From the NCBI GenBank assembly GCA_963977445.1, contig CAXBPH010000171.1, forward strand, positions 1 to 15,014: DNA of 15,014 bases. Direction: 5' to 3'. The notes below the pieces were generated by a model. It had not been told where the DNA came from, did no database searches, and worked only from the letters and a program-made list of their open reading frames with translations. The first letter of the stretch is position 1, and every line of letters starts with the position of its first letter. Made by a program: the position numbers and the translations under genes. This document shows positions 1,358 to 15,014 of the stretch, one piece after another. The stretch comes from an uncultured bacterium. Its GTDB lineage: Bacteria > Hydrogenedentota > Hydrogenedentia > Hydrogenedentales > JAEUWI01.

Positions 1358-2089
1358 TTACTTCAGGGGCTCCATCCGCACATTCCGATAGGCCACGGGG
1401 CCGTGGTCTCCCTGAAACATGAGGGGGCCGGTGGGCTTCTCGTCGGTGAAAGTTCCCGAACGAGTAGGGCCGGTCACCGGCTCATTTTCGTGGATGATCT
1501 GACCATTTAACACAACCTTCTCGAAGAGGGCATCCTTAATCTTCTTGCCATTGTCGTCGAAGCGGGGGGCGCGAAAGGTGATGTCGAAACTTTGCCATTC
1601 GCCGGGCTGCTTTGAAGCGTTTAACTTGGGTGCTACGCCGCCGAAGGAAGGGGCACCGTCTTTGCCGGTCTGTTCGTAGATGCCACCGCAATCGCTGTAC
1701 TTGAGCTCCGTTTTGCCCCAGCTGTCGAGGACCTGAATCTCGTAGCGACTCATGAGGTAAATGCCCGAGTTGGAGCCTTTGGCCACGGCAAATTCTACAT
1801 GCAGTTGGACGTCGCCATGTTCCGCCGCAGAATGGAGGTCGTCGGTCTTTCCCTTGTCGCCGTTGACCGCGACAGCGTTGCCCTCGGTCCAACCCAGTCG
1901 CTTGTCGTCGTCCGGAGCCAGACTCACATCGCCTGCCATAACCCAATCGCCGAGGGGCGCACGACATTGGGTGAGATCACCGGTGGCAAAGAGGTCTACG
2001 GTGTCGGTGAGGGATTCGGCGGAGGTGAGGGAGGACGTAGTGACCAGCATAAAGATGACGAGAATGAACGAACGAAAGATTGAATACAT
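1358..2089 (-). CDS. DUF1080 family protein (3-keto-disaccharide hydrolase / 3-ketoglycoside lyase-hydratase family), secreted, 243 aa
   Basis: Signal peptide. Family motifs NSGIYLMSRYEIQVLDS, CGGIY, PGEWQSFDITFRAPRF, VVLNGQIIH, GPLMFQGDHGPVAYRNV. Confidence 0.9.
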   Translation of the reverse strand: MYSIFRSFILVIFMLVTTSSLTSAESLTDTVDLFATGDLTQCRAPLGDWVMAGDVSLAPDDDKRLGWTEGNAVAVNGDKGKTDDLHSAAEHGDVQLHVEFAVAKGSNSGIYLMSRYEIQVLDSWGKTELKYSDCGGIYEQTGKDGAPSFGGVAPKLNASKQPGEWQSFDITFRAPRFDDNGKKIKDALFEKVVLNGQIIHENEPVTGPTRSGTFTDEKPTGPLMFQGDHGPVAYRNVRMEPLK

Positions 2090-2328: not shown

Positions 2329-5300
2329 TTACTTCATCAACTCCAAGGCCGTGGCACATTTCTTCACGTGTAAATCCTGCGCATCGTCGATGCCGATGTA
2401 CGGCTGTTTGGGCGAAGTCTTGGTCGGTTGTGCCGCACCAATTTTCCACGCGTCCCGGGCGTCTTTCATGCGGTCCAGCTTGGCCAGCGACTTGCCCTGC
2501 CAGTAACGGAGTTCGGCGTCGGTCAAGACATAGCGCGCGCCCACTTCCAGGTACTCGGGGTAGGTGAGGGTTTCGGTAAAATCGGCCAAGGCCTTTTCGG
2601 TTTCACCAGCTCCGAATGACAATTTGCCCCGGGCAAGCAAGGCCGCTTCAAAAATGTCGTGGGGACGGGTGGAGCCTTCAAAATTCGAGAAGGTCGCGTT
2701 TTTCAAGAGGTCCAGACAATCGTCGTAACGGCCACCGTCCACATAGGCCTGGGCGAGCCACAACACGATGTCGAAGCGCGCGGGCACCACTTCGGGCATA
2801 CCCTCGATTAAAGTGATCGCTTCTGCCGTCTTTTTATCGGCCACGAGGATTTGCGAGAGGTCGCGGTAGAGAATCTGGTCTTCCGGGCTGGACGCAATGG
2901 CCTTACGATAAAAGGCAGCCGCTGCGGCCAAATCCTTTTTGGATTTCCAGGCATCCTGTCCCAGCAAGCGGAGGGGAACACTGCCACCGCCCTTGGCAAC
3001 GGCCTCTTCCCAATAGGGCACGGCACCATCGGGATTGAAGAGCGCCGCTTCCAGCAGTCCCTGCGCGGTGTGTATGACAGCGCTATCGGGCGCGAGTTTT
3101 GCCGCATGGGCGAGAACTACGCGGGTCTCGGGCCGCGAGGGGAAGGTCAGGCCCAGGCTGGCGGGGGTAATGTTGCTCAATGCTGCTTGTGCTCCCGATT
3201 CGTCACCGGTTTGGCTGCGACACCACGCGAGGTAGGTGTAGGGGAGTAGATCGTTGCCGTTGAGGACGTCCGTGCTCAATGCCCCTTCTAGGAGCATGGC
3301 TGCTTCGCTGTAGAGGCCGTGATTTGTGAAAAAGACGGCGACCTCCATGAGCGTGAAGACTTTCTCGCCACAGGCCTCTTGCCAGAAGGCCAGGGCCCTT
3401 TCGGCGTTCGTCGGATCAGCCACGGCGGCCAGCCCATGGACAACAAAGTCCGTGGGGTCCACGCGGTGCTGGAGGAGCGGTAGTTCGGCGGAGATGGAAT
3501 CGCCCAGGGCATAGCGTGCAGCGAGCCACTCATTGCGGACTTGGGTATCTTCGGGGGCCATCGTGCCGGCTTGGCTGAAGGCATCCACAGCGCCCGTATA
3601 GTCGCGCTGCATCATCTTCGCCCGACCAATGAGACTGTAGCCCAGGGGGATATTGTCCAGACCCTGCACCACCTTGAAGCCACTCGCAATGGCCCCATCA
3701 AAATCGCCCGTAGCCAATTGGGCCGCACCGAGGAGGTGCCAGGCTTCGGAAGATTCCGCGTTGATGCGCAAAGCTTCCCGGGCGCGGGCCATGCAATTGG
3801 TATAGTCGCCCCGTTCCAACAGGAGCGTCGCCAGGGCATTCAGGGCATCCACATGTCCCGGAGAGACGGCCAGCACGGCCTCATATTTCTCTTGGGCCAT
3901 TTCCGGCTGATTTTTTCGATCGAGCAATTGGCCGGCCATATACAATTGGGTGGCCTCCGGCAGCGTTTTCTGCCAGGCCGCTTCCCCTTCGAGATCGGGC
4001 GCGTCTACCGGCGTGATGGCCAGGGGTGTGGCATAGGCCAGGAGGGTGCTTCCCGCGCTATCGGTGATGGCTATATCGATGGGCTCCGTTGGTGCGTTTT
4101 CCAATGAGGTGGTGTACGCAGCAAGGGGGGACAGGTCCATGGTCATGTCGGAAAGGACACGTTCGCCTTGGGACAAGACCAGTCGGGCACCGGGAAACTT
4201 CGCCGTGGCAATGAGGGCGAGCTTCAGCAGCGTACCCTCCCGTTTGGCATTGATGGCGATATCACGATTGGCGAATTCAAAGCCGTCGCCGAGGCCATGG
4301 ACAGGATACCAATACTCCCGCCAGCGAATTTCTTCCAGGGGTTTGAGGAAGCCATAGTCCGCCTGGGTGAGGAGGGGACCCGTCTGTACCTCGATGTAGG
4401 GCGCGTCCTCCCGGTTGCCATCGGTGAGGCCCATCTGGCTCGTGACACCGAAGTCATCTTCGCCCCAGGTCCAGGCTTTTTTGCCGCGAACGATGTGGTG
4501 GTTCGCATGGGACACAATGCCCCGGTCGAGGTCGACGTCGTAGGCCCCGAAAAAATCCTGATCGCAGCCATAGGCGAAGACGGAAGCCATGGTGGGATAG
4601 TTTTTCAGGTAGGTCATATCCACGCCGTCATTCACCGGCCATGTAAAAAACTCATCGCCATTGTGATTGCTGCCGAGGGACATGGGGTAAATAAAGCGCG
4701 TACCGTCGAGGTTGGGGAAGGCCGTGTTGTTCCAGAAGTAATAGGTGTGGGTGCCGTCCGTCGGGTTGGCCATGCGGATGGACTCATCGAGGTAGGCCTT
4801 GCCCGGGTGCAGGGTCAGGCGCACTGTCCAGCGGGTGCGAAACATTTTTTCCGTGTTGCCGATGACCAGGGTGGCCGAGCCGTCCTCGTTGTTCACGATG
4901 GTGGCGTCTACGGGGGATACAATGGTGACCGTGTGGCCTTGGGGGCCGACGTTCCATTCGATACCCCCGGCAATCCACGCGCCCCGCATGGAAATCAACG
5001 CGGGCTTAATGACACCCGGGTTGTGAAACATTTCCTGGTCCGTGGTCTTGTCCCACACCGAATGGATGCGCCCACCGAGTTCCGGGAGGCAGGTGACCTT
5101 CAGGTATTCGTTTTCCAGATAGAGGGCGCGATAGGTGCGGAGCTCCGGCTTGTCGAGAAGGTGATCCTGTCGGGTGTAGGGATAATAGATGCGTCCTTCG
5201 TACTCCTGAAAAACGGGATTGGGGTCGTCTATCCAGGGATAGGTCAAGAGGTCGAGGGTGCCCTCCGAGCTTTGGACCGGCTCGGCGTTTGCCGTCGAAA

Positions 5301-5343
5301 TGGTGGCCAATACAACAAGCAGCGCTGGAAGTAATCGAGTCAT
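2329..5343 (-). CDS. DUF5107 domain + tetratricopeptide-repeat protein, secreted, ~1004 aa
   Basis: DUF5107 motifs (LENEYLKVTCLPELGGRI, IKPALISMRGAWIAGGIEWN, YYFWNN, GKKAWTWG, YIEVQTG, EYWYPV) followed by many TPR-like helical repeats. Start moved from 5487 to ATG 5343 because of the AAGGGA RBS and the signal peptide MTRLLPALLVVLATISTANA. Confidence 0.88.
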   Translation of the reverse strand: MTRLLPALLVVLATISTANAEPVQSSEGTLDLLTYPWIDDPNPVFQEYEGRIYYPYTRQDHLLDKPELRTYRALYLENEYLKVTCLPELGGRIHSVWDKTTDQEMFHNPGVIKPALISMRGAWIAGGIEWNVGPQGHTVTIVSPVDATIVNNEDGSATLVIGNTEKMFRTRWTVRLTLHPGKAYLDESIRMANPTDGTHTYYFWNNTAFPNLDGTRFIYPMSLGSNHNGDEFFTWPVNDGVDMTYLKNYPTMASVFAYGCDQDFFGAYDVDLDRGIVSHANHHIVRGKKAWTWGEDDFGVTSQMGLTDGNREDAPYIEVQTGPLLTQADYGFLKPLEEIRWREYWYPVHGLGDGFEFANRDIAINAKREGTLLKLALIATAKFPGARLVLSQGERVLSDMTMDLSPLAAYTTSLENAPTEPIDIAITDSAGSTLLAYATPLAITPVDAPDLEGEAAWQKTLPEATQLYMAGQLLDRKNQPEMAQEKYEAVLAVSPGHVDALNALATLLLERGDYTNCMARAREALRINAESSEAWHLLGAAQLATGDFDGAIASGFKVVQGLDNIPLGYSLIGRAKMMQRDYTGAVDAFSQAGTMAPEDTQVRNEWLAARYALGDSISAELPLLQHRVDPTDFVVHGLAAVADPTNAERALAFWQEACGEKVFTLMEVAVFFTNHGLYSEAAMLLEGALSTDVLNGNDLLPYTYLAWCRSQTGDESGAQAALSNITPASLGLTFPSRPETRVVLAHAAKLAPDSAVIHTAQGLLEAALFNPDGAVPYWEEAVAKGGGSVPLRLLGQDAWKSKKDLAAAAAFYRKAIASSPEDQILYRDLSQILVADKKTAEAITLIEGMPEVVPARFDIVLWLAQAYVDGGRYDDCLDLLKNATFSNFEGSTRPHDIFEAALLARGKLSFGAGETEKALADFTETLTYPEYLEVGARYVLTDAELRYWQGKSLAKLDRMKDARDAWKIGAAQPTKTSPKQPYIGIDDAQDLHVKKCATALELMK

Positions 5344-5430
5344 GGAGATTCCCTTTTCTGAGTTCCTGAGTTGCACCCTATCCCGACGAGTTTTTTTATT
5401 GTAGTGAGGCCGGGGTTTGGTTACAAGGGC

Positions 5431-5491
5431 GACTTGTGGAGTCCATGGGACTTGTGGATGTGGCAAACGCCAACTATCAACTATCAATCAC
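5431..5491. repeat. Short tandem repeats in the divergent intergenic region (9-mer x3, 7-mer x3)
   Basis: GACTTGTGG-AGTCCATGG-GACTTGTGG (5431-5457) and CAACTAT-CAACTAT-CAATCAC (5471-5491). Confidence 0.5.
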
Positions 5492-5610: not shown

Positions 5611-7704
<2,094 letters not shown>

Positions 7705-9316: not shown

Positions 9317-12300
9317 TTACCCCACGGCCACCAGCAACCGCAGTTCACTGCCCTCAATCGTCACCACTTTCGCATCACCCTCGGCTGCACCGCTCTCCAG
9401 CGAATTCGCCAGGACTTCCTGAGCGATATAGTCGCGGAAGCCCTCGATGGCCGCGTTCAGCGACGTGTCGTCGGTGGCGTAGGTCACGGCGATGCGTGCG
9501 TCGTAGGCGAGGTTCTGGTCTTTGCGGATGTCCTGCAGGGCGCGGATTACTTCGCGGACCAGGCCCTCTTTGCGGAGCTCGTCGGTGATGATGGTAGAAA
9601 TGACCACCACCAACTGATTGCCCTGGGCGGCGGCGAAGCCTTCTTTCGGCGTAAGGCGTACTTCGACCTCCTCCGCCGTAAGGGCTTCCTGTTTGCCGTC
9701 GACTTCGATGCTGATACCGCCGGTGAGCAGTTGGGCCTGGAGGGCGGCACCATCGGCACCGGCCAAGGCCTTGCGGACCTGCTGGACGTTTTTCCCGAAG
9801 CGGGGTCCGAGGACTTTGAAGTTCGGGCGGACTTCGTAGGAAACGTATTCTTCGGGACTGTCCGTAAAGGATACTTCCTTGATGTTCAGTTCTTCCTGGA
9901 TGAGGTCGAGGTGCTTTTCCAGGGCTGCACGCTGGTCGGGGTTGGCCACGACGAGTTCACAACTGCCGAGGGGCTGGCGGACCTTGATGTTTTCCACGCG
10001 GCGGGCATTGAGCCCCAGCGTTACCGCTTCGCGGGTCAGGGCCATCTGGTCGAGCAAGGCGTGGTCGATGGATGCGGCGTCGGCGTTGGGGTAGGTCGCG
10101 AGGTGGACACTGTCCGCCGCACCGGCCACGGGCTTCGCCAGGTTACGCCACGTCACTTCCGCGAAGAAGGGCGTGAAGGGCGCGGCCAGACGGGCCAGCT
10201 TGATGAGGCACTCATAGAGCGTCCAATAGGCATCGGCCTTGTCTTCGCTCCAGCCACTCGCCCAGAAACGGGCGCGACTGCGGCGTACGTACCAGTTGGA
10301 GAGGCTGTCCACAAAGCCCGAAACTTCGCGGGCGGCCGGATAGGTTTCGTAGTTGTCCAGGGCCGTGCAGGCATCGACGATGACGCGGTCGAGTTCGTTG
10401 AGGATCCACTGGTCCAACTCGGCCCGTTCGGCGGCGGGACGATAGACGGCGTCGCCACCCGTGCCACCGGCAGGTGCCAGTGCGGGGTCGGCGTAGAGTT
10501 CCTTCAACACAGCCTGGGGCGCACTCGACGGGTCGAAGCCATCGAGGTTCGCATAGATGACAAAGAAACTGTAGACGTTGTACCAACGCATGAGCAGTTC
10601 GCGCTGCGCCTCTTCCACGATGCGCTCCGAAAGGCGGCTGCTGTTCGTGGGCGGGTTCTTGGCGATGAAGCTCCAGCGGAGGGCGTCGGCGCTGAACTTT
10701 TCAAAAAGCAGTCCGGGCTCGCTGTAATTCTTCAGGCGCTTGGACAGCTTCAGGCCGTCTTCCCCGAGGATGTGGCCGAGGCAGATACAATTCTTGAAGG
10801 GGTGGGGCCAACCGCCTTTTTCTTTCCCATGGACCACGGTGCTGATGGCCAGCAGGGCGTAGAACCAACCACGGGTCTGGTCGATGGCTTCACTGATAAA
10901 GTCCGCCGGAAAGCGGTCGTTAAATTTTTTGTCGGATCCTTCGAGGTGGGGATAACCCCACTGGGCAAAGGGCATGCAGCCCGCGTCAAACCACACGTCG
11001 ATGACTTCCGTCACCCGGCGCATGCGGCCTTCGGGGTCCTTGGGGCTCTGGAAGGTCACCGCATCGATGTAGGGCTTGTGCACCTTGAGGTGTTCGCTCA
11101 ACTCTGGCGTTTCGGCTTTCGCTTTCAGCCAGACGTCCGTGCCTTCGATGCCGGGCTTGGCCAGCAACTCATCATAGGAGCAGATGCATTCCATGTGGCC
11201 TGTCTTGTCGCAGATCCACACAGGCAGGGGCGTTCCCCAATAGCGCTCGCGGGACAGGGCCCAGTCCACGTTGTTTTCCAGGAAGTTGCCGAAACGGCCA
11301 TCCCGGATATGCTGGGGCTGCCAGCTGATTTCTTTATTGTTCGCGACGAAATCATCTTTGAACTGGGAGGTCTTGATGAACCAGCTTTTCCGGGCATACT
11401 GGATGAGGGGGTCATTCTCCGCACGGGGACAGAAGGGATAGGAGTGTTTGTATTGCTCGTGCTTGAAGAGATTGCCCCGCTCTTTTAAGACACGCAGAAT
11501 ACCCTTATCGGCGCTTTTGCAGAACTGACCGGCGATGGGGCTCTGGTCATAGGGGTCCACATCGATAACGCGCTCGTCGAAGGTGCCGTCGGGCTTCACA
11601 TAACACAGGAAGCCGATGCCGCTTTCCTTGCAGACACGGTAATCGTCTTCACCAAAGGCCGGGGCCATGTGGACGATGCCGGTACCGGTTTCGAGGTCAA
11701 CAAAATCACCGGCGATGACCATCCAGTGCTTTTCCGATTCTACATCCGGGTTTTCCATGGAGGTGGGCATGCCGTAATTGAAGAGGGGTTCATAGCCCAC
11801 GCCAAGGAGATCGCTACCCTTGATGGTCTGGACAATTTCTGCCTCTTCACCAAAATATTTCGCTACCAGCGCCTGGGCGAGGATGAGCATCTCGTGGCCG
11901 GCTTCGGTCACGTGTTTCACTACGGCGTAATCCGTCTCGGGTCCCACGCACGCGGCGCAATTGCTCGACAAGGTCCAGGGTGTCGTCGTCCAGATGAGGA
12001 GACCGGCGTCTTCCCCTTCCAGATTGAGGGCCTGCTTGCCCGCGTCGGTGAGGGAAAGTTTTACCGTTACGGCCGGGTCATCGGTGTCGCGATAGCCTTC
12101 GCCCACTTCACCCGCCGAAAGGGCCGTGCCGCCCTGGGCCCACCACCACACAACCTTGTGGCCCTGATAGAGGAGGCCGCGGTCAAAGAGTTGTTTCAAG
12201 GCCCACCACACGCTTTCCACATAGCTCTGGTGGAAGGTCACATAGGCCTCGTCCAGGTCTACCCAGAATCCGATCCGGTCCGTGAGTTGTTCCCATTCCT

Positions 12301-12703
12301 TCTTATAGCGGAAGACCGACTCGATGCAGGTGCGGTTGAACTTTTCCACGCCGAATTTCTCGATGGCTTCTTTACCACCATCGATGATGCCCAGTTCCTT
12401 GCAGACCTCAATTTCGACGGGAAGGCCATGGGTGTCCCAGCCGGCCTTGCGCTCGCAATAGCTGCCCGACATGGTCTTGTAGCGGGGGAAAATATCTTTG
12501 ATGGTCCGCGTCAGGCAGTGGCCCGGGTGGGGCATGCCGTTGGCCGTGGGGGGGCCTTCAAAAAAGACAAAGCGGGGCGCATCCTTCCGCTGTTCCAGAC
12601 TCTTCTTATAGGTCTGGTGTTCCTTCCAGAAGGCAATGGTCTCATTTTCCGCCGCAGCAAAATTAAAGGGGGACGGGACCGGTTCAAAGGCATCGTTGGA
12701 CAT
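9317..12703 (-). CDS. ileS: Isoleucine--tRNA ligase, type 2 (IleRS2), 1128 aa
   Basis: FEGPPTANGMPHPGH (HIGH motif), GWDTHGLPVE, editing domain WTTTPWTL and GTGIVHMAPAFGEDD, DWALSRERYWGTPLP, EAIDQTRGWFY, KLSKR (KMSKS motif), LSNWYVRRSR. Long type-2 C-terminus (EGLVREVIRALQDIRK) with no C-terminal Zn finger. Confidence 0.97.
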   Translation of the reverse strand: MSNDAFEPVPSPFNFAAAENETIAFWKEHQTYKKSLEQRKDAPRFVFFEGPPTANGMPHPGHCLTRTIKDIFPRYKTMSGSYCERKAGWDTHGLPVEIEVCKELGIIDGGKEAIEKFGVEKFNRTCIESVFRYKKEWEQLTDRIGFWVDLDEAYVTFHQSYVESVWWALKQLFDRGLLYQGHKVVWWWAQGGTALSAGEVGEGYRDTDDPAVTVKLSLTDAGKQALNLEGEDAGLLIWTTTPWTLSSNCAACVGPETDYAVVKHVTEAGHEMLILAQALVAKYFGEEAEIVQTIKGSDLLGVGYEPLFNYGMPTSMENPDVESEKHWMVIAGDFVDLETGTGIVHMAPAFGEDDYRVCKESGIGFLCYVKPDGTFDERVIDVDPYDQSPIAGQFCKSADKGILRVLKERGNLFKHEQYKHSYPFCPRAENDPLIQYARKSWFIKTSQFKDDFVANNKEISWQPQHIRDGRFGNFLENNVDWALSRERYWGTPLPVWICDKTGHMECICSYDELLAKPGIEGTDVWLKAKAETPELSEHLKVHKPYIDAVTFQSPKDPEGRMRRVTEVIDVWFDAGCMPFAQWGYPHLEGSDKKFNDRFPADFISEAIDQTRGWFYALLAISTVVHGKEKGGWPHPFKNCICLGHILGEDGLKLSKRLKNYSEPGLLFEKFSADALRWSFIAKNPPTNSSRLSERIVEEAQRELLMRWYNVYSFFVIYANLDGFDPSSAPQAVLKELYADPALAPAGGTGGDAVYRPAAERAELDQWILNELDRVIVDACTALDNYETYPAAREVSGFVDSLSNWYVRRSRARFWASGWSEDKADAYWTLYECLIKLARLAAPFTPFFAEVTWRNLAKPVAGAADSVHLATYPNADAASIDHALLDQMALTREAVTLGLNARRVENIKVRQPLGSCELVVANPDQRAALEKHLDLIQEELNIKEVSFTDSPEEYVSYEVRPNFKVLGPRFGKNVQQVRKALAGADGAALQAQLLTGGISIEVDGKQEALTAEEVEVRLTPKEGFAAAQGNQLVVVISTIITDELRKEGLVREVIRALQDIRKDQNLAYDARIAVTYATDDTSLNAAIEGFRDYIAQEVLANSLESGAAEGDAKVVTIEGSELRLLVAVG

Positions 12704-13110
12704 GGATAGGGCTTCCTTCGCTTCGGGCGACGGTTTTCATGTTAATACAGGGTGTATGCCCATGTTGGGGCATGTCGGCAGGCCATGGCTACGGTCAAGG
12801 ACCGAAAAAACACAAAAAATGGCCTGCCAAGCCCAATATGATCGCCTTTTGACCCCGGATCATGCAACTTTTGGACAAAATAAGAGAAAATTGATATGGG
12901 CAACGACTCTACACTCCACGACTCCCTGGGAGTGGGGGGGAACGGGTATTCGGAGAGTACCTGTTTGGGCCTTGCATAGTCTCGTTTTGAGGCCGTGTGT
13001 CGAAGGACGGCACTGTCGTGTCCATGAGATAACGCAAGTTTTTGGGTTGCATAGTAGATGTAATATTGCTAAGTCCTTATAAAATAGAATGTTATGACGA
13101 GGTGTGATTC

Positions 13111-13127
13111 TTGGCACGGCGCTGGCT
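13111..13127 (+). promoter_or_regulatory. sigma-54 (RpoN) -24/-12 promoter
   Basis: TTGGCACGGCGCTGGCT versus consensus YTGGCACGRNNNTTGCW: one mismatch, exact GG-N10-GC spacing. An AT-rich tract lies just upstream (~13056-13096), and the small ORF starts 117 nt downstream. Confidence 0.75.
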
Positions 13128-13243
13128 TTACATTCCCATACGCTACGAGGCGTACGAACAATTGAACGTGAACGTTGATGACCGCCATCTATGGCTCCGT
13201 AAACCATCAGCGATTTGCAGGGAAAAACCAGGAGGAATTTACT

Positions 13244-13390
13244 ATGAACACTATCGAAATCAACGACCTCAAGAATGAAGTGACTGCAGAAGAAGCTACC
13301 ACGGTCGTGGGCGGCTACAGGTACAAGCTCAAAGACGTCATTGTTACCAGCTATAGCGTCAACGGCTCATCTGGTGCCACCCGTGGCTAA
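13244..13390 (+). CDS. 48-aa peptide: double-glycine-type leader (24 aa) + 24-aa beta-strand core with Hcp-like sequence
   Basis: AGGAGG RBS at 13230-13235 and ATG at 13244. MNTIEINDLKNEVTAEEATTVVGG|YRYKLKDVIVTSYSVNGSSGATRG. Flanked by a sigma-54 promoter and a terminator. Confidence 0.78.
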   Translation: MNTIEINDLKNEVTAEEATTVVGGYRYKLKDVIVTSYSVNGSSGATRG

Positions 13391-13435
13391 AAACTGAGTC
13401 CGAACCACGGTTCAGGACTGGAACGGGGTAAGGAC

Positions 13436-13484
13436 AAAAAAACGGCTGGTGCCCTGCACTTCGTGCACGCACCGCCGTTTTTTT
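13436..13484 (+). terminator. Intrinsic (likely bidirectional) terminator after the peptide gene
   Basis: A7-CGGC-T-GGTGC-CC-TGCAC-TTC-GTGCA-C-GCACC-GCCG-T7. A smaller hairpin AGTCC-GAACC-AC-GGTTC-A-GGACT lies at 13397-13419. Confidence 0.85.
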
Positions 13485-13515
13485 ATTTGGGTGAGACCCG
13501 TCCCAAGACCCCGGA

Positions 13516-13760
13516 ACCATGGTCGTGTCGTGCGAACCGGTACTCCGGTTGAAGATATGCCGCAGGAGGATTCGTGCGAAGGGACTGTGGGGAGTCAATG
13601 GTGTCGGTGAGATATCAAATTGCCCGGAAAGGGAATTCATTGGGAAACATATCGATACTCACCCTTTTGCAGACGAAAGCATAAACCATGGACGTGCCGC
13701 GCGATCCGGTAGCTCCGCATCGTGCGAGGGAACTGAGGGGAGTCTTTGGAGTCGGTGATG
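13516..13760. repeat. REP-containing ~147-bp tandem unit upstream of RAYT (copies start at 13516 and 13685)
   Basis: Both copies read ACCATGG-REP-GGGA(A)CTGWGGGGAGTC..TGGWGTCGGTGA. Spacing is 169 = 147 + a 22-nt insert in copy 1. REP core 13693-13726 is an imperfect palindrome. Confidence 0.85.
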
Positions 13761-13845
13761 TTGTAAAAAGAACTCCACGAGGAATTTGAGAATAGCGCAC
13801 CAGGCTCGCTTGTGGTCTTCGTGGAGGGATTCGGTTTATCTTTCC

Positions 13846-14049
13846 TACCCACGCACGATGCGGAGCTACCGGATCGCGGTGCACGCCTGGAGGGTTTCGT
13901 TTTTGTTGGTGGGTTGATTCACTGTTGGTACCCACGCACGATGCGGAGCTACCGGATCGCGCGGCACGATTGGAGGGTCTCGTTTTTGTTGGTGGGTCGA
14001 TTTTCTGTTGGTACTCACGCACGAACTCACCTTCGGCGAGTCTTCGACC
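13846..14049. repeat. 83-bp tandem unit carrying the same REP in inverted orientation (starts 13846, 13929, 14012)
   Basis: 13935-13968 is the exact reverse complement of 13693-13726, and 13852-13885 has 2 mismatches. The third unit diverges after CGCACGA into the 22-nt module. Confidence 0.9.
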
Positions 14050-14125
14050 CTGGAGAGCGCCCGTCTCGCTCGGTGGGGTTAGTTGCTCGGTAGTAGACAT
14101 AGGTCATCTGGCCAACGTTTGCCCC

Positions 14126-14154
14126 TTGACCGAAAATAAGATTCTCGGTAGGCT
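14126..14154 (+). promoter_or_regulatory. Candidate sigma-70 promoter for RAYT
   Basis: TTGACC, 17-nt spacer, TAGGCT. AGGAGG at 14178-14183 lies 12 nt before ATG 14196. Confidence 0.5.
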
Positions 14155-14195
14155 ATATCCATCAAGGGCCAAGATGCAGGAGGCAACGACTCGAT

Positions 14196-14756
14196 ATGGA
14201 AAACCACGATATTCCTCGTCGAATCGTTCAGTTACAGAATACGCCGGGGGAGGCGCACTATCTGACGTTCTCCTGTTTTCAGAAACGCCGCTTCTTAATT
14301 CGAGACCGAACCCGCCAGTATGTGGTGGGCGCCTTAGATCGCGCGCGGGCCAAACACAAGTTCGACCTCTGGGCCTACGTCATCATGCCTACCCACATAC
14401 ACGTACTCTTGTTCCCCAGAGAGGACGTATATGATATGGGCAAGATCGAAACGACAATCAAGCTGTCGGTTACGCGTCGTGCGATGAATTACCTCCGTCG
14501 TTACAATCCGGAAGGGCTTCGATACCTGGCCACCGGGCAACGGGATACGCCCTATCGTTTTTGGCAACAAGGGGAGGGATACGACGAGAATTTGAGTACA
14601 CTCGAGGCCGCCCACGCTATCGCGGAGTACATTCACAATAATCCCGTCCGTGCGGGCTTGGTTGCCAATCAGGAAGATTGGAAATGGTCCAGTGCCCGTG
14701 AATGGTTGATTGAGGGAAGTGGGCCATTGTCCTTGGATAAGAATTCTTTTTTGTAG
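14196..14756 (+). CDS. rayT: REP-associated tyrosine transposase (RAYT / TnpA-REP, IS200-like Y1 HUH family), 186 aa
   Basis: HYLTFSC, AYVIMPTHIHVLL (HUH motif), FWQQGEGYD, YIHNNPVRAGLV (catalytic Tyr) and WKWSS. Flanked on both sides by REP arrays; no tnpB. Confidence 0.92.
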   Translation: MENHDIPRRIVQLQNTPGEAHYLTFSCFQKRRFLIRDRTRQYVVGALDRARAKHKFDLWAYVIMPTHIHVLLFPREDVYDMGKIETTIKLSVTRRAMNYLRRYNPEGLRYLATGQRDTPYRFWQQGEGYDENLSTLEAAHAIAEYIHNNPVRAGLVANQEDWKWSSAREWLIEGSGPLSLDKNSFL

Positions 14757-14788
14757 GCTCATCTCTTTGTTTCGAGAAGCCTTGGCCC

Positions 14789-15014
14789 TCAATGGGGTCG
14801 ATAAGATATCAAACTGCTCCAAGAGATTATATTTTTGGAATGATGTCTCCACTCACGATTTTTGCAAAACGAAACCGTACACCATGGTCGTGCCGCGCGA
14901 TCCGGTACTCCGGTTCGTGCGAAGGGACTGAGGGGAGTCATTGGTGTCGGTGAGGTGGCAATTCCCCCGGAGGAGTCATTTTCTGGAAACATGTAGCTAT
15001 TCAAACGTTTACAG
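14789..15014. repeat. ~147-bp REP-containing tandem unit downstream of RAYT (partial 14789-14880, then 14881 to window end)
   Basis: 14789-14880 aligns with 13595-13684. 14881 onward (ACCATGGTCGTGCCGCGCGATCCGGTACTCCGGTTCGTGCGAAGGGACTGAGGGGAGTC...) aligns with 13516 onward minus the 22-nt insert, up to the last base of the window. Confidence 0.88.

What the first reader, a model, noticed from the sequence alone, without database searches (positions are those of the whole stretch)
13244..13390. Orphan double-glycine-leader peptide whose core looks like a single beta-strand of the T6SS tube protein Hcp
Seen: a 48-aa ORF with AGGAGG RBS, its own promoter and terminator, split into a 24-aa acidic leader ending EVTAEEATTVVGG and a 24-aa core YRYKLKDVIVTSYSVNGSSGATRG. 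Established: leaders of the form (L/V)(S/T)xxE(L)xx(I/V)xGG are cleaved and exported by C39-peptidase ABC transporters (PCAT), as for bacteriocins and RiPPs. Inference: the core has no Cys and an alternating beta-strand pattern. It aligns without gaps to the Hcp segment I recall from P. aeruginosa Hcp1, LIITLKEVLVSSVSTGGSGG (9/20 identical plus D/E, I/L, T/S; recalled from memory, needs verifying). No transporter, modifying enzyme, immunity or T6SS gene lies nearby. It could be a secreted tube-strand mimic that caps or poisons Hcp or phage tail-tube assembly by beta-augmentation, a self-assembling beta-fibre subunit, or a signal peptide derived from an Hcp fragment. I know of no characterised system of this kind.
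Basis: partly seen in the sequence, partly recalled or inferred. Interest (0 to 1): 0.85.

Follow-up and report, generated by a model that had tools for sequence, protein, structure and literature searches.

The report
Exported-type peptide built from an Hcp strand
A real small gene from an uncultured Hydrogenedentota bacterium encodes a secretion-type leader joined to a free copy of one beta-strand of the Hcp tube protein, and it belongs to an undescribed family whose members carry different Hcp and pilin-like fragments.

Summary
Window 13244..13390(+) encodes 48 aa: a 24-aa acidic leader ending VVGG and a 24-aa Cys-free core, with an AGGAGG ribosome-binding site and a strong terminator hairpin.

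It is a real gene family. I collected 22 members of 44-70 aa, and the two loci with an organism title are Hydrogenedentota MAGs. All 22 keep GG. They also keep [VLI](-12), E(-8), A(-7) and [VI](-4). pN/pS is about 0.2-0.35.

The Hcp likeness is homology, not composition. PF05638 is the top Pfam hit. hhalign gives 96% probability. All 22 cores beat all 200 of their own shuffles. All 120 listed longer hits are Hcp proteins.

A three-gene operon in a relative (L002) fuses the same type of leader to the Hcp N-terminal strand, to an H-X9-DG pseudopilin C-terminus, and to the same Hcp mid strand.

A conserved sigma-54-type promoter, not a sigma-70 one, precedes the genes.

No transporter, modifying enzyme or T6SS gene lies within about 10 kb at any of the three loci. 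Whether the rest of the genome holds one could not be checked.

The function is untested. Export followed by strand mimicry is my leading reading, but it is an inference.

The parts
12966..12980 (+). Conserved upstream box TGGGCCTTGCATAGT, about 140 nt upstream of the -24 element. It is a candidate enhancer-binding-protein site (inference).
   Evidence: the box is kept upstream of both L001 copies (TGGGCGGTGCATGGT, TGGGCGTTGCATAGT) and only weakly in L002. repeat family D5.
13038..13055 (+). Second copy of the box (GTTTTTGGGTTGCATAGT), 75 nt downstream of the first.
   Evidence: D5: 78% identical direct repeat. It is not clearly conserved in L001.
13112..13127 (+). Sigma-54-type promoter element TGGCAC-N5-TGGCT (-24 GG / -12 GC).
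   Evidence: the only match in the window (0.17 expected). Conserved in L001 copies A and B. L002 has TGGCATGGAAGTTGCT upstream of its peptide operon. The consensus TGGCAC-N5-TTGCW is recalled, not taken from a call.
13138..13243 (+). Inferred 5' UTR of about 105 nt, with a conserved hairpin at 13139-13154. It carries a 20-nt insertion relative to L001.
   Evidence: near-identical in the three copies. No compensatory pairs (0 of 20). No Rfam match. The start site is inferred from the -12 element.
13230..13235 (+). Shine-Dalgarno sequence AGGAGG.
   Evidence: Invariant in the three copies.
13244..13315 (+). Double-glycine-type leader, 24 codons (MNTIEINDLKNEVTAEEATTVVGG).
13316..13390 (+). Core peptide, 24 codons plus stop (YRYKLKDVIVTSYSVNGSSGATRG). 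It is homologous to the Hcp long strand plus the following loop.
   Evidence: PF05638, E 0.056; hhalign 96.2%, residues 25-45 against P0043 97-117; 19.5 bits against a shuffle maximum of 3.1. P0043 strand E93-112.
13436..13484 (+). Intrinsic terminator hairpin flanked by an A-run and a T-run (it could terminate in both directions).
   Evidence: -28 kcal/mol, z -4.17. Conserved in L001.

Best explanation
This is a genuine, translated small gene of a family so far seen only in Candidatus Hydrogenedentota.

Shown:
- The gene is a self-contained unit: a conserved upstream box, a sigma-54-type promoter, a conserved 5' UTR of about 105 nt, a strong ribosome-binding site, a 24-aa leader, a variable core and a terminator.
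- The leader has the recognition pattern of double-glycine (C39-peptidase ABC transporter, PCAT) substrates.
- The core is a recruited fragment of an Hcp-fold protein: the long beta-strand plus the following Gly/Ser loop.
- Other family members carry the same leader on other conserved pieces. These are the Hcp N-terminal strand, an H-X9-DG pseudopilin C-terminus and an FG-GAP-like tail.
- The strand motif is sometimes duplicated in tandem.

Inferred:
- Under a signal read by a sigma-54 activator, the precursor is made, cut after Gly24 and exported by a PCAT encoded elsewhere in the genome.
- The released 24-aa peptide (YRYKLKDV...) has no stable fold of its own. It acts by beta-strand pairing, either with Hcp-fold proteins or with itself. 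Several of the closest Hcp homologues read carry Sec-signal-like N-termini, which would place them outside the cytoplasm.
- It would then be a secreted competitive 'strand mimic' or microprotein-like antagonist rather than a cationic membrane peptide.

My odds by step: real gene with an Hcp-derived core, about 0.9. PCAT-type export and cleavage, about 0.55. Action through strand mimicry or beta-augmentation, about 0.25.
For: Real gene:
- Homologues at 40-83% identity keep the frame, including an in-frame 2-codon indel.
- pN/pS is 0.16/0.50, 0.13/0.44 and 0.05/0.24 for the three DNA pairs, in both leader and core.
- Each of the three L002 genes has its own Shine-Dalgarno sequence.
- Synteny with L001: IleS is 94% and the DUF255 protein 89% identical, while the peptide is only 60% identical and the copy number is 1 against 2.

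Leader:
- Counts over 22 members are, set against the pattern and LahT structure passages of PMC6363468.
- ESM-Atlas look-alikes are ComC (0.86) and type-A lantibiotic (0.85). Both are under 0.9, so they are leads only.
- hhalign aligns only residues 25-45 to Hcp, so the leader is a separate module.
- The same type of leader sits on the Hcp N-terminus in L002 peptide 1.

Hcp origin:
- PF05638 hits: P0001 at E 0.056 (profile 84-110 of 129), L002 peptide 1 at E 1.9e-4 (profile 1-24), L002 peptide 3 at E 0.0082 (profile 87-108). Overall 5 of 22 members hit it at E <= 1.
- hhalign of A1 against A4: 96.2% probability, E 2.2e-9, 57% identity over 21 columns.
- 22 of 22 cores score above all 200 of their own shuffles against an Hcp HMM, always starting at core residue 1-2 or, in L002 peptide 3, residue 6.
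- In the 'longer' search, 120 of 120 listed hits carry PF05638.
- P0043, the reference Hcp, models at pLDDT 90.6 and matches Hcp1 structures 1Y12 and 4W64 at TM 0.85-0.9.

Other fragments:
- L002 peptide 2 matches DUF1559 at 25.8 bits, above the gathering score of 23.3.
- TIGR04294 (H-X9-DG) is hit by one of the 22 members at E 8.7e-9. The table does not say which member; I take it to be L002 peptide 2.
- FG-GAP is hit by 5 of 22 members, best E 0.0019.

Not a generic cationic peptide: core net charges, counted by eye, range from about +3 to -2, and 0 of 22 cores contain Cys (sequences, Cys count).

Topology: 10 of 14 Hcp homologues read have N-terminal hydrophobic extensions.

Sigma-54 link: RpoN with VasH-type activators drives hcp and T6SS clusters in several bacteria (PMC10482370, passages read).
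Against: - No PCAT, HlyD-type protein, TolC-type protein or immunity gene lies within the window or within about 10 kb of the L001 and L002 peptides.
- No curated double-glycine-leader model matched any of the 22 members at E <= 10.
- Position -7 is Ala, not Leu.
- The window peptide's own Pfam Hcp hit is below the gathering score (14.2 against 23.5 bits).
- PDB phmmer found nothing for P0001 or P0002.
- My Hcp alignment and HMM were built from proteins retrieved because they share 5-residue words with the peptides, so lean towards the match.
- In the index-free phmmer search, a non-Hcp repeat protein (P0005, E 6e-9) outscored the multi-Hcp protein P0009 (E 2.3e-4). E-values for repeat proteins are therefore inflated in that search.
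- No source that names an organism shows an Hcp from Hydrogenedentota, so a cognate target in the same genome is unproven.
- An internal strand of a folded barrel is not an obvious docking site.
- There is no evidence of any kind for binding, self-assembly, export or activity.
- The sigma-54 element rests on a motif only. Whether the genome has rpoN or an activator is unknown.
Confidence: 0.4

Rival explanations
1. It is an ordinary class II microcin-like bacteriocin. A PCAT/MFP system exports it and it kills relatives through some receptor or membrane target. The Hcp origin of the core is only raw material: a fragment captured from an abundant paralogue family, with no Hcp-related function.
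For: The leader pattern fits. The peptide evolves fast and varies in copy number next to neighbours that are 89-94% identical. The core has a Gly/Ser-rich tail. Class II microcins are reported as abundant and sequence-diverse (PMC12219008, abstract in the listing and passages).
Against: The cores keep the same motif as the Hcp homologues collected, although those were retrieved by shared words. They do so across divergent leaders, and at least two different Hcp pieces plus a pseudopilin piece were recruited. P0024's last 15 residues are identical to a stretch of the Hcp P0039. This suggests recent capture or conversion, although P0024 may be cut short by the end of its 501-nt contig. No immunity gene or transporter is nearby. 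The cores are shorter (20-44 aa) than the microcins I recall (60-90 aa).
Confidence: 0.28
2. It is a secreted signalling peptide (a ComC-like pheromone). It is cleaved at GG and sensed by a two-component system.
For: The ESM-Atlas look-alike is ComC at 0.86, a lead only. PCATs export quorum-sensing peptides (PMC6363468 introduction). The gene appears to be under regulated, sigma-54-type expression.
Against: No sensor kinase or response regulator is adjacent in the window. The kinase and regulator in L001 lie about 6-8 kb away, with unrelated genes between. The reading does not explain the Hcp, H-X9-DG or FG-GAP content, or the several different cores in one operon.
Confidence: 0.1
3. It is a cytoplasmic microprotein that is never exported. 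The Hcp-like strand would act on the cell's own Hcp pool or on an Hcp-sensing sigma-54 activator, and GG would simply be a turn.
For: In the Hcp homologues read, a '...KAGG' turn precedes the same strand. Pfam's alignment of P0001 runs into the leader, covering residues 14-40. Hcp is reported to bind the activator VasH in V. cholerae (PMC10482370, passage read).
Against: The same type of leader is fused to the Hcp N-terminus and to a pseudopilin C-terminus in L002. hhalign does not align the leader to Hcp. The -12/-8/-4 pattern is conserved.
Confidence: 0.07
4. It is a RiPP precursor. The leader would recruit modifying enzymes that act on Tyr, Ser or Thr residues of the core.
For: The core is rich in Ser, Thr and Tyr, and an aromatic residue sits at +1 in 18 of 22 members. 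There are weak L_biotic_typeA leader hits in 3 of 22 members, E >= 0.13.
Against: No radical-SAM, LanM/LanB/LanC, YcaO, P450 or other tailoring enzyme was found in the window, L001 or L002. No core contains Cys.
Confidence: 0.05
5. It is a decaying remnant of an hcp gene, or a spurious ORF.
For: The core matches only about 20 residues of Hcp, and the Pfam score is below threshold.
Against: The gene has its own conserved promoter, UTR, ribosome-binding site and terminator. pN/pS is about 0.2-0.35. There are 22 intact members. tblastn found no other Hcp-like remains in the window.
Confidence: 0.02

Closest known systems
Class II microcins and bacteroidetocins (double-glycine signal peptides exported by a PCAT + MFP + TolC type I system)
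   Same: They share a short N-terminal leader ending in GG with hydrophobic residues at -4 and -12 and Glu at -8, a small unmodified-looking Gly/Ser-rich core, and fast evolution (PMC12219008 passages; PMC6363468 passages).
   Different: No PCAT, MFP or immunity gene is nearby. No curated leader HMM matches. Position -7 is Ala. The leader is 24 aa, against the 15 aa quoted for MccV and the bacteroidetocins. The cores are fragments of Hcp, pseudopilin and FG-GAP-like proteins. The promoter is sigma-54-type.
Hcp (PF05638), the tube protein of the type VI secretion system; e.g. P. aeruginosa Hcp1, PDB 1Y12
   Same: The core is locally homologous to the long strand plus the following loop: P0043 residues 97-117, and Hcp1 '...ITLKEVLVSSVSTGGSG...' as printed. 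A paralogue carries the Hcp N-terminal strand.
   Different: The core covers only about 20 of the roughly 130-160 residues, so it cannot form the barrel or the ring. It sits behind a secretion-type leader. The peptide alone models as disordered (pLDDT 55).
ComC-type competence pheromones and lantibiotic precursors (Gram-positive double-glycine substrates)
   Same: They have the same leader architecture, and they are the look-alikes found by language-model features, with scores of 0.85-0.86 that count as leads only.
   Different: The phylum differs, there is no cognate ComAB/ComDE or Lan enzyme nearby, and the core is unrelated.
NHLP / Nif11-type RiPP precursors, whose leaders derive from fragments of larger proteins (recalled: Haft et al. 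2010, not read here)
   Same: Both are peptide precursors partly built from a recruited piece of a larger protein family, with a GG-type cleavage site.
   Different: In those families the leader is the recruited piece. Here the core is. No tailoring enzymes are seen here.
Eukaryotic 'microProteins' (small dominant-negative fragments of multidomain proteins; recalled concept)
   Same: A small protein made of a single interaction element copied from a larger assembling protein.
   Different: This is only an analogy of mechanism. No binding has been shown, and this peptide is bacterial and probably secreted.

Membership tests
Double-glycine-leader (PCAT substrate) peptides / class II microcins | Leader ends in Gly-Gly (or GA/GS) directly before the core | tested here: met
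   GG at -2/-1 in 22 of 22 members. In the window it is G23-G24.
Double-glycine-leader (PCAT substrate) peptides / class II microcins | Recognition pattern Leu(-12)-X3-Glu(-8)-Leu(-7) with a hydrophobic residue at -4 (PMC6363468) | tested here: inconclusive
   Position -12 is V/L/I in 21 of 22, -8 is E in 16 of 22, and -4 is V/I in 22 of 22. Position -7 is Ala in 21 of 22, a small rather than large hydrophobic residue.
Double-glycine-leader (PCAT substrate) peptides / class II microcins | Match to a curated leader or bacteriocin HMM (e.g. TIGR01847 or PF10439 types) | tested here: not met
   NCBIfam: no leader model matched any of the 22 members at E <= 10. Pfam: only L_biotic_typeA, 3 of 22, best E 0.13. 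HMMER's filters drop most matches above about E 0.1.
Double-glycine-leader (PCAT substrate) peptides / class II microcins | Cognate C39-peptidase ABC transporter (plus MFP) encoded nearby | tested here: not met
   None in the 15-kb window or in the 20-kb and 12-kb loci L001 and L002.
Double-glycine-leader (PCAT substrate) peptides / class II microcins | A PCAT anywhere in the genome; cleavage and export | not testable with these tools
No experiment was possible.
Hcp (PF05638) | Pfam score at or above the gathering threshold, covering the domain | tested here: not met
   14.2 bits against 23.5, covering profile 84-110 of 129 only. The best family member reaches 22.1 bits.
Hcp (PF05638) | Local homology to a defined Hcp element | tested here: met
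   hhalign gives 96.2%, E 2.2e-9. 22 of 22 cores score above 200 shuffles. 120 of 120 listed longer hits are Hcp. Caveat: the Hcp set was chosen by shared words.
RiPP precursor | Tailoring enzyme or RRE protein in the neighbourhood | tested here: not met
   None found by Pfam in the window, L001 or L002.
Sigma-54-dependent gene | -24 GG / -12 GC element with the correct spacing upstream, conserved among copies | tested here: met
   Window 13112-13127, L001 9226, L002 1327. The alignment shows it in both L001 copies. Chance expectation in the window is 0.17.
Sigma-54-dependent gene | rpoN and an enhancer-binding activator present; RpoN-dependent transcript | not testable with these tools

The most novel reading that the evidence does not exclude
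Hydrogenedentota run a cassette system. One sigma-54-controlled secretion leader is fused, by repeated recruitment, to the most conserved assembly strands of polymerising envelope machines: Hcp strand 1, the long Hcp strand, and the H-X9-DG C-terminus of pseudopilins. The exported peptides would act as dominant-negative strand mimics that cap or misassemble Hcp-fold rings, tubes or pseudopili, either in competitors or as self-regulation. That would be a new class of bacteriocin-like agent: an anti-machine microprotein.
Probability: 0.15. Interest if true: 0.9.

Novelty: new variant of a known kind. Interest (0 to 1): 0.72.

Why it matters
Double-glycine peptides are usually treated as toxins or pheromones with cores of unknown origin. 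In this family the origin of the core can be read directly. It is a short, highly conserved strand of the Hcp tube protein, and in sister genes it is another Hcp strand or a pseudopilin C-terminus.

If the peptides work through these motifs, they would be natural, genetically encoded inhibitors or probes of Hcp-fold or pilus assembly. They would also be the first secreted 'fragment mimic' peptides described in bacteria.

If they do not work that way, the family is still a clean case of new small genes being born by fusing a leader cassette to fragments of abundant paralogues. It also gives a first handle on peptide secretion and sigma-54 regulation in an uncultured phylum.

Tried and rejected
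- PDB sequence search with P0001 and P0002: no hits at E <= 10.
- Rfam on the whole window at gathering thresholds, and on 12700-13520 at E <= 1: nothing. The conserved 5' UTR belongs to no known RNA family, and its predicted fold shows 0 of 20 compensatory pairs.
- Sigma-70 promoter scan: 0 sites.
- tblastn of all 22 peptides against the window, L001 and L002: no copies beyond the six known. One marginal match at window 14177-14257 (E 0.034) lies at the start of the transposase gene, and I judged it chance.
- AlphaFold of the peptide alone, with a 22-row alignment: pLDDT 55, essentially disordered, so uninformative.
- Hits P0005, P0010 and P0011 are repeat proteins of other kinds. I rejected them as spurious. 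They show that this search inflates E-values for repeat proteins.
- Complex prediction (Hcp alignment A4 with peptide alignment A1): the queue was full and then the tool was declared unavailable. Nothing was folded.
The taxa and sources of P0001, P0021, P0043, P0044 and others therefore stayed unchecked.
- Literature searches found no paper describing such peptides: double-glycine + Hcp + leader peptide (one unrelated paper); Hydrogenedentes + bacteriocin (8 unrelated by title and abstract); Hydrogenedentes + type VI secretion (none); Hcp + peptide + tube assembly + mimic (18 papers of which 8 were listed, none on this by title or abstract); double-glycine + RpoN (4 unrelated). I saw listings only for these.
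Full report
**1. What is in the sequence.**

Window 13244..13390 (+) is an ATG-to-TAA ORF of 48 codons. It reads MNTIEINDLKNEVTAEEATTVVGG followed by YRYKLKDVIVTSYSVNGSSGATRG. AGGAGG sits 8 nt upstream, at 13230-13235. Downstream, 13436-13484 folds into a long hairpin between an A-run and a T-run: -28 kcal/mol, z = -4.2, and 0 of 200 shuffles fold as well. The simple terminator scan missed it because of its inner loop.

The sigma-70 scan found no promoter in 12600-14300. Instead, TGGCACGGCGCTGGCT at 13112-13127 fits the -24/-12 layout of sigma-54 promoters; that consensus is recalled, not taken from a call. It is the only match in the window. Chance expectation is 0.17, and 30 of 200 shuffles have at least one match. 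On its own this is weak evidence. Its weight comes from conservation, described in section 3.

**2. Where it comes from, and the neighbourhood.**

The window's neighbours are ordinary genes:
- isoleucyl-tRNA synthetase, 9317..12703 (-)
- a DUF255 thioredoxin-like protein, 5611..7704 (+)
- a DUF5107/TPR protein, 2329..5487 (-)
- a 3-keto-disaccharide hydrolase-like protein, 1358..2089 (-)
- downstream, a REP-associated tyrosine transposase, 14196..14756 (+), among REP-like repeats

There is no C39-peptidase ABC transporter, HlyD-type protein, tailoring enzyme, immunity-like gene or T6SS gene.

L001 is syntenic with the window: IleS is 94% and the DUF255 protein 89% identical. L001 carries two tandem peptide genes where the window has one. 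The peptide is only 60% identical to its best L001 counterpart. The locus therefore evolves several times faster than its neighbours and varies in copy number.

**3. The gene is a conserved unit.**

I aligned the window unit with the two L001 units. The promoter element, a 5' UTR of about 105 nt, the ribosome-binding site and the leader are nearly invariant. The core and the 3' region diverge. The terminator hairpin is kept, with changes on both sides of the stem. The window has a 20-nt insertion in the UTR.

About 140 nt upstream of the promoter, a box TGGGC-N2-TGCATRGT is kept in all three units. The window has a second, 78%-identical copy 75 nt further on. This fits an activator site but is only an inference.

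The UTR has no Rfam match. Its predicted fold has 0 of 20 compensatory pairs, so I make no RNA-structure claim.

Codon-level comparison of the three copies gives pN/pS of 0.16/0.50, 0.13/0.44 and 0.05/0.24, similar in leader and core. The numbers are small, but they consistently point to selection on the protein.

**4. The family.**

Three searches built the family:
- The word-indexed search found one close homologue, P0002, at 79% identity with an in-frame two-codon deletion right after GG.
- The index-free phmmer search of 1.84 billion representatives found five more small proteins.
- A profile search added more.

With the three L002 peptides this gives 22 members of 44-70 aa. Leaders are 21-32 aa and cores 20-44 aa. 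No core contains Cys.

Leader positions over the 22 members:

| Position | Residue | Members |
|---|---|---|
| -1, -2 | G | 22 of 22 |
| -4 | V/I | 22 of 22 |
| -7 | A | 21 of 22 |
| -8 | E | 16 of 22 |
| -11 | T/S | 16 of 22 |
| -12 | V/L/I | 21 of 22 |
| +1 | Y/W | 18 of 22 |

Bobeica et al. 2019 (PMC6363468, passages read) give Leu(-12)-X3-Glu(-8)-Leu(-7) as the recognition sequence. [quoted passage not shown] The family fits this pattern except for Ala at -7.

Against membership, no curated leader model in NCBIfam matched any of the 22 members at E <= 10. Pfam gave only L_biotic_typeA, in 3 of 22 members at E >= 0.13. ESM-Atlas feature look-alikes are ComC (0.86) and type-A lantibiotic (0.85). 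Both are below the 0.9 at which such hits mean more than a lead.

**5. The Hcp likeness is real.**

For the window peptide alone, PF05638 (T6SS_HCP) is the top Pfam hit, but it is sub-threshold: E 0.056, 14.2 bits against a gathering score of 23.5, residues 14-40 against profile 84-110 of 129. The family makes the case:
- **(a) Pfam across the family.** 5 of 22 members hit PF05638 at E <= 1.
- **(b) Profile-profile comparison.** Comparing the seven closest peptides with 104 Hcp proteins gives 96.2% probability and E 2.2e-9. Peptide residues 25-45 align to P0043 residues 97-117 at 57% identity. The leader is not aligned.
- **(c) Shuffle control.** Against an Hcp HMM, 22 of 22 cores score above all 200 of their own shuffles. 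The window core scores 19.5 bits against a shuffle maximum of 3.1. The match begins at the first residue or two after GG in all but L002 peptide 3, where it starts at core residue 6.
- **(d) Longer proteins.** A profile search among longer proteins returned 255 hits at E <= 1, and all 120 listed carry PF05638.
- **(e) The reference is a true Hcp.** P0043 models at pLDDT 90.6 and matches Hcp1 structures 1Y12 and 4W64 at TM 0.85-0.9. In that model the aligned segment is the long strand E93-112 plus the following loop.
It is printed in the 1Y12 alignment. Through P0043 the window core matches it at 9 of 20 positions.

Three caveats apply. The Hcp set behind (b) and (c) was retrieved by shared 5-residue words, which favours the motif. 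The hhalign E-value is for a single comparison. In one search a non-Hcp repeat protein (P0005, E 6e-9) outscored the multi-Hcp protein P0009 (E 2.3e-4), so repeat proteins inflate that search's E-values. The independent Pfam model and the next point carry the argument.

**6. The decisive relatives.**

L002 holds an operon of three peptide genes, each with its own Shine-Dalgarno sequence. They lie behind a canonical-looking TGGCATGGAAGTTGCT element. All three have the same type of leader.

| L002 peptide | Match | Score | Region matched |
|---|---|---|---|
| 1 | PF05638 (Hcp) | E 1.9e-4, 22.1 bits | residues 30-53 against profile 1-24 (the Hcp N-terminal strand and loop) |
| 2 | DUF1559 | 25.8 bits, above the gathering score of 23.3 | profile 221-260 of 268 |
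| 3 | PF05638 (Hcp) | E 0.0082 | profile 87-108 (the same mid strand as the window) |

NCBIfam's H-X9-DG model TIGR04294 is hit by one of the 22 members at E 8.7e-9. The table does not name the member, and I take it to be peptide 2.

Seven other members append a tail, F/Y-[RT]-GGVRVA-x-GD-[VL]. FG-GAP is hit by 5 of the 22 members, best E 0.0019. By eye the tail resembles the H-X9-DG tail of L002 peptide 2.

Three members repeat the strand motif twice (P0007, P0014, P0015). One leader module is therefore joined to different conserved beta-strand pieces of larger protein families.

P0024's last 15 residues are identical to a stretch of the Hcp P0039. That hints at recent capture or conversion. 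However, P0024 sits on a 501-nt contig and may be cut short.

**7. How it most likely works.**

Shown:
- The gene is real, selected and self-contained.
- It has a double-glycine-type leader.
- Its core derives from Hcp.
- The family is modular.
- A sigma-54-type element is conserved upstream.

Inferred:
- The precursor is cut after Gly24 and exported by a PCAT encoded elsewhere.
- The free 24-mer is disordered on its own (pLDDT 55) and acts by strand pairing.

Four points make me prefer an Hcp-related action over a generic antimicrobial peptide:
- The cores keep the same motif as the Hcp homologues collected, across divergent leaders.
- At least two different Hcp pieces and a pseudopilin piece were recruited.
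- Core charge, counted by eye, varies from about +3 to -2, which is unlike cationic membrane peptides.
- 10 of 14 close Hcp homologues read have N-terminal hydrophobic extensions that look like Sec signals. No predictor was run. A crude rule flags 10 of 104. Hcp-fold proteins of this kind may therefore lie outside the cytoplasm, where an exported peptide could meet them.

Sigma-54 with VasH-type activators controls hcp and T6SS clusters in several bacteria, and Hcp is reported to bind VasH (PMC10482370, passages read). A sigma-54 promoter on Hcp-derived genes is at least suggestive of shared regulation or shared origin.

Against this reading, no transporter is in view. No Hcp has been shown to come from Hydrogenedentota, since none of the source names is from that phylum. 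An internal barrel strand is not an obvious docking element.

My odds are about 0.9 for a real gene with an Hcp-derived core, about 0.55 for PCAT-type export, and about 0.25 for strand mimicry.

**8. Comparison with known systems.**

It works most like a class II microcin or bacteroidetocin precursor, or another PCAT substrate. I do not file it as a member. The GG site and most of the recognition pattern are met. Curated HMM matches and a linked transporter were tested and not met, and genome-wide presence of a PCAT could not be tested.

It is not an Hcp. It holds about 20 of the roughly 150 residues and scores below Pfam's threshold, but it is locally homologous to one.

It is not a recognisable RiPP locus.

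**9. Novelty.**

Five literature searches found no description of double-glycine peptides with Hcp-derived cores, or of any bacteriocin-like peptide in Hydrogenedentota (listings only). I rate it a new variant of a known kind. The precursor architecture is known. The fragment-derived, modular cores and the sigma-54-type control are new. Function remains open.

**10. What stayed unchecked.**
- The rest of the genomes, for a PCAT, rpoN, hcp and tss genes.
- The metagenome and viral contig collections, which were closed.
- Any complex prediction.
- Supplements of the papers cited, which I did not open. I do not expect them to bear on the claims.

Noticed in passing
window 13504-14971: REP-like repeats flank a REP-associated tyrosine transposase gene at 14196..14756 (+) (NCBIfam NF047646, E 7.6e-25). 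There are three 58-nt copies, three 39-nt copies, a tandem pair of 83-nt units at 13846-14011, and 19-41-nt inverted pairs. The 161-aa ORF at 13615..14100 (-) has no family hit and overlaps these repeats, so it is probably not a gene. This block occupies the place where L001 has its second peptide gene.
   Followed up: partly
L001 9338..9472 and 10001..10171: Two tandem peptide-gene units, each with its own sigma-54-type element, UTR and terminator. The first encodes a core that is the strand motif repeated twice (YKLKNVVVSSYKLKNVVVSS).
   Followed up: yes
L002 1415..2068: A three-gene operon of leader peptides. Their cores match the Hcp N-terminus, the DUF1559 C-terminus (the likely H-X9-DG match), and the Hcp mid strand. 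One sigma-54-type element lies upstream, at 1327-1342.
   Followed up: yes
proteins P0009, P0026-P0036, P0038: 13 of the 14 multi-domain Hcp proteins examined have exactly six tandem Hcp domains, and eleven of them are about 1040-1125 aa long. This is as if an Hcp hexamer ring were encoded as one chain. Eleven begin with an N-terminal motif of the type L-E-x-R-x-[LVF]-[LFM]-A; one carries PF07595 and is labelled Pirellulales. I do not know of a description of this, and I did not follow it up.
   Followed up: partly
proteins: 10 of the 14 Hcp homologues read carry N-terminal hydrophobic extensions that look like Sec signal peptides. This is unusual for T6SS tube proteins. No signal-peptide predictor was run.
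   Followed up: no
protein P0021: A 78-aa ORF, seen on two contigs, consists of the C-terminal third of Hcp with the strand motif duplicated. It has no double-glycine leader. Its strand, YYRYELKNVIVTSYQISG, is 13 of 20 identical to the window core.
   Followed up: partly
window 13181-13200: A 20-nt insertion (ACCGCCATCTATGGCTCCGT) in the otherwise near-invariant 5' UTR, relative to both L001 copies.
   Followed up: no
window 12704-13110: The spacer of about 400 nt between ileS and the promoter has no convincing ORF. It contains a box conserved with L001 (12966-12980) and a short conserved TAAGT...ATGTTATGAC stretch just upstream of the -24 element.
   Followed up: partly
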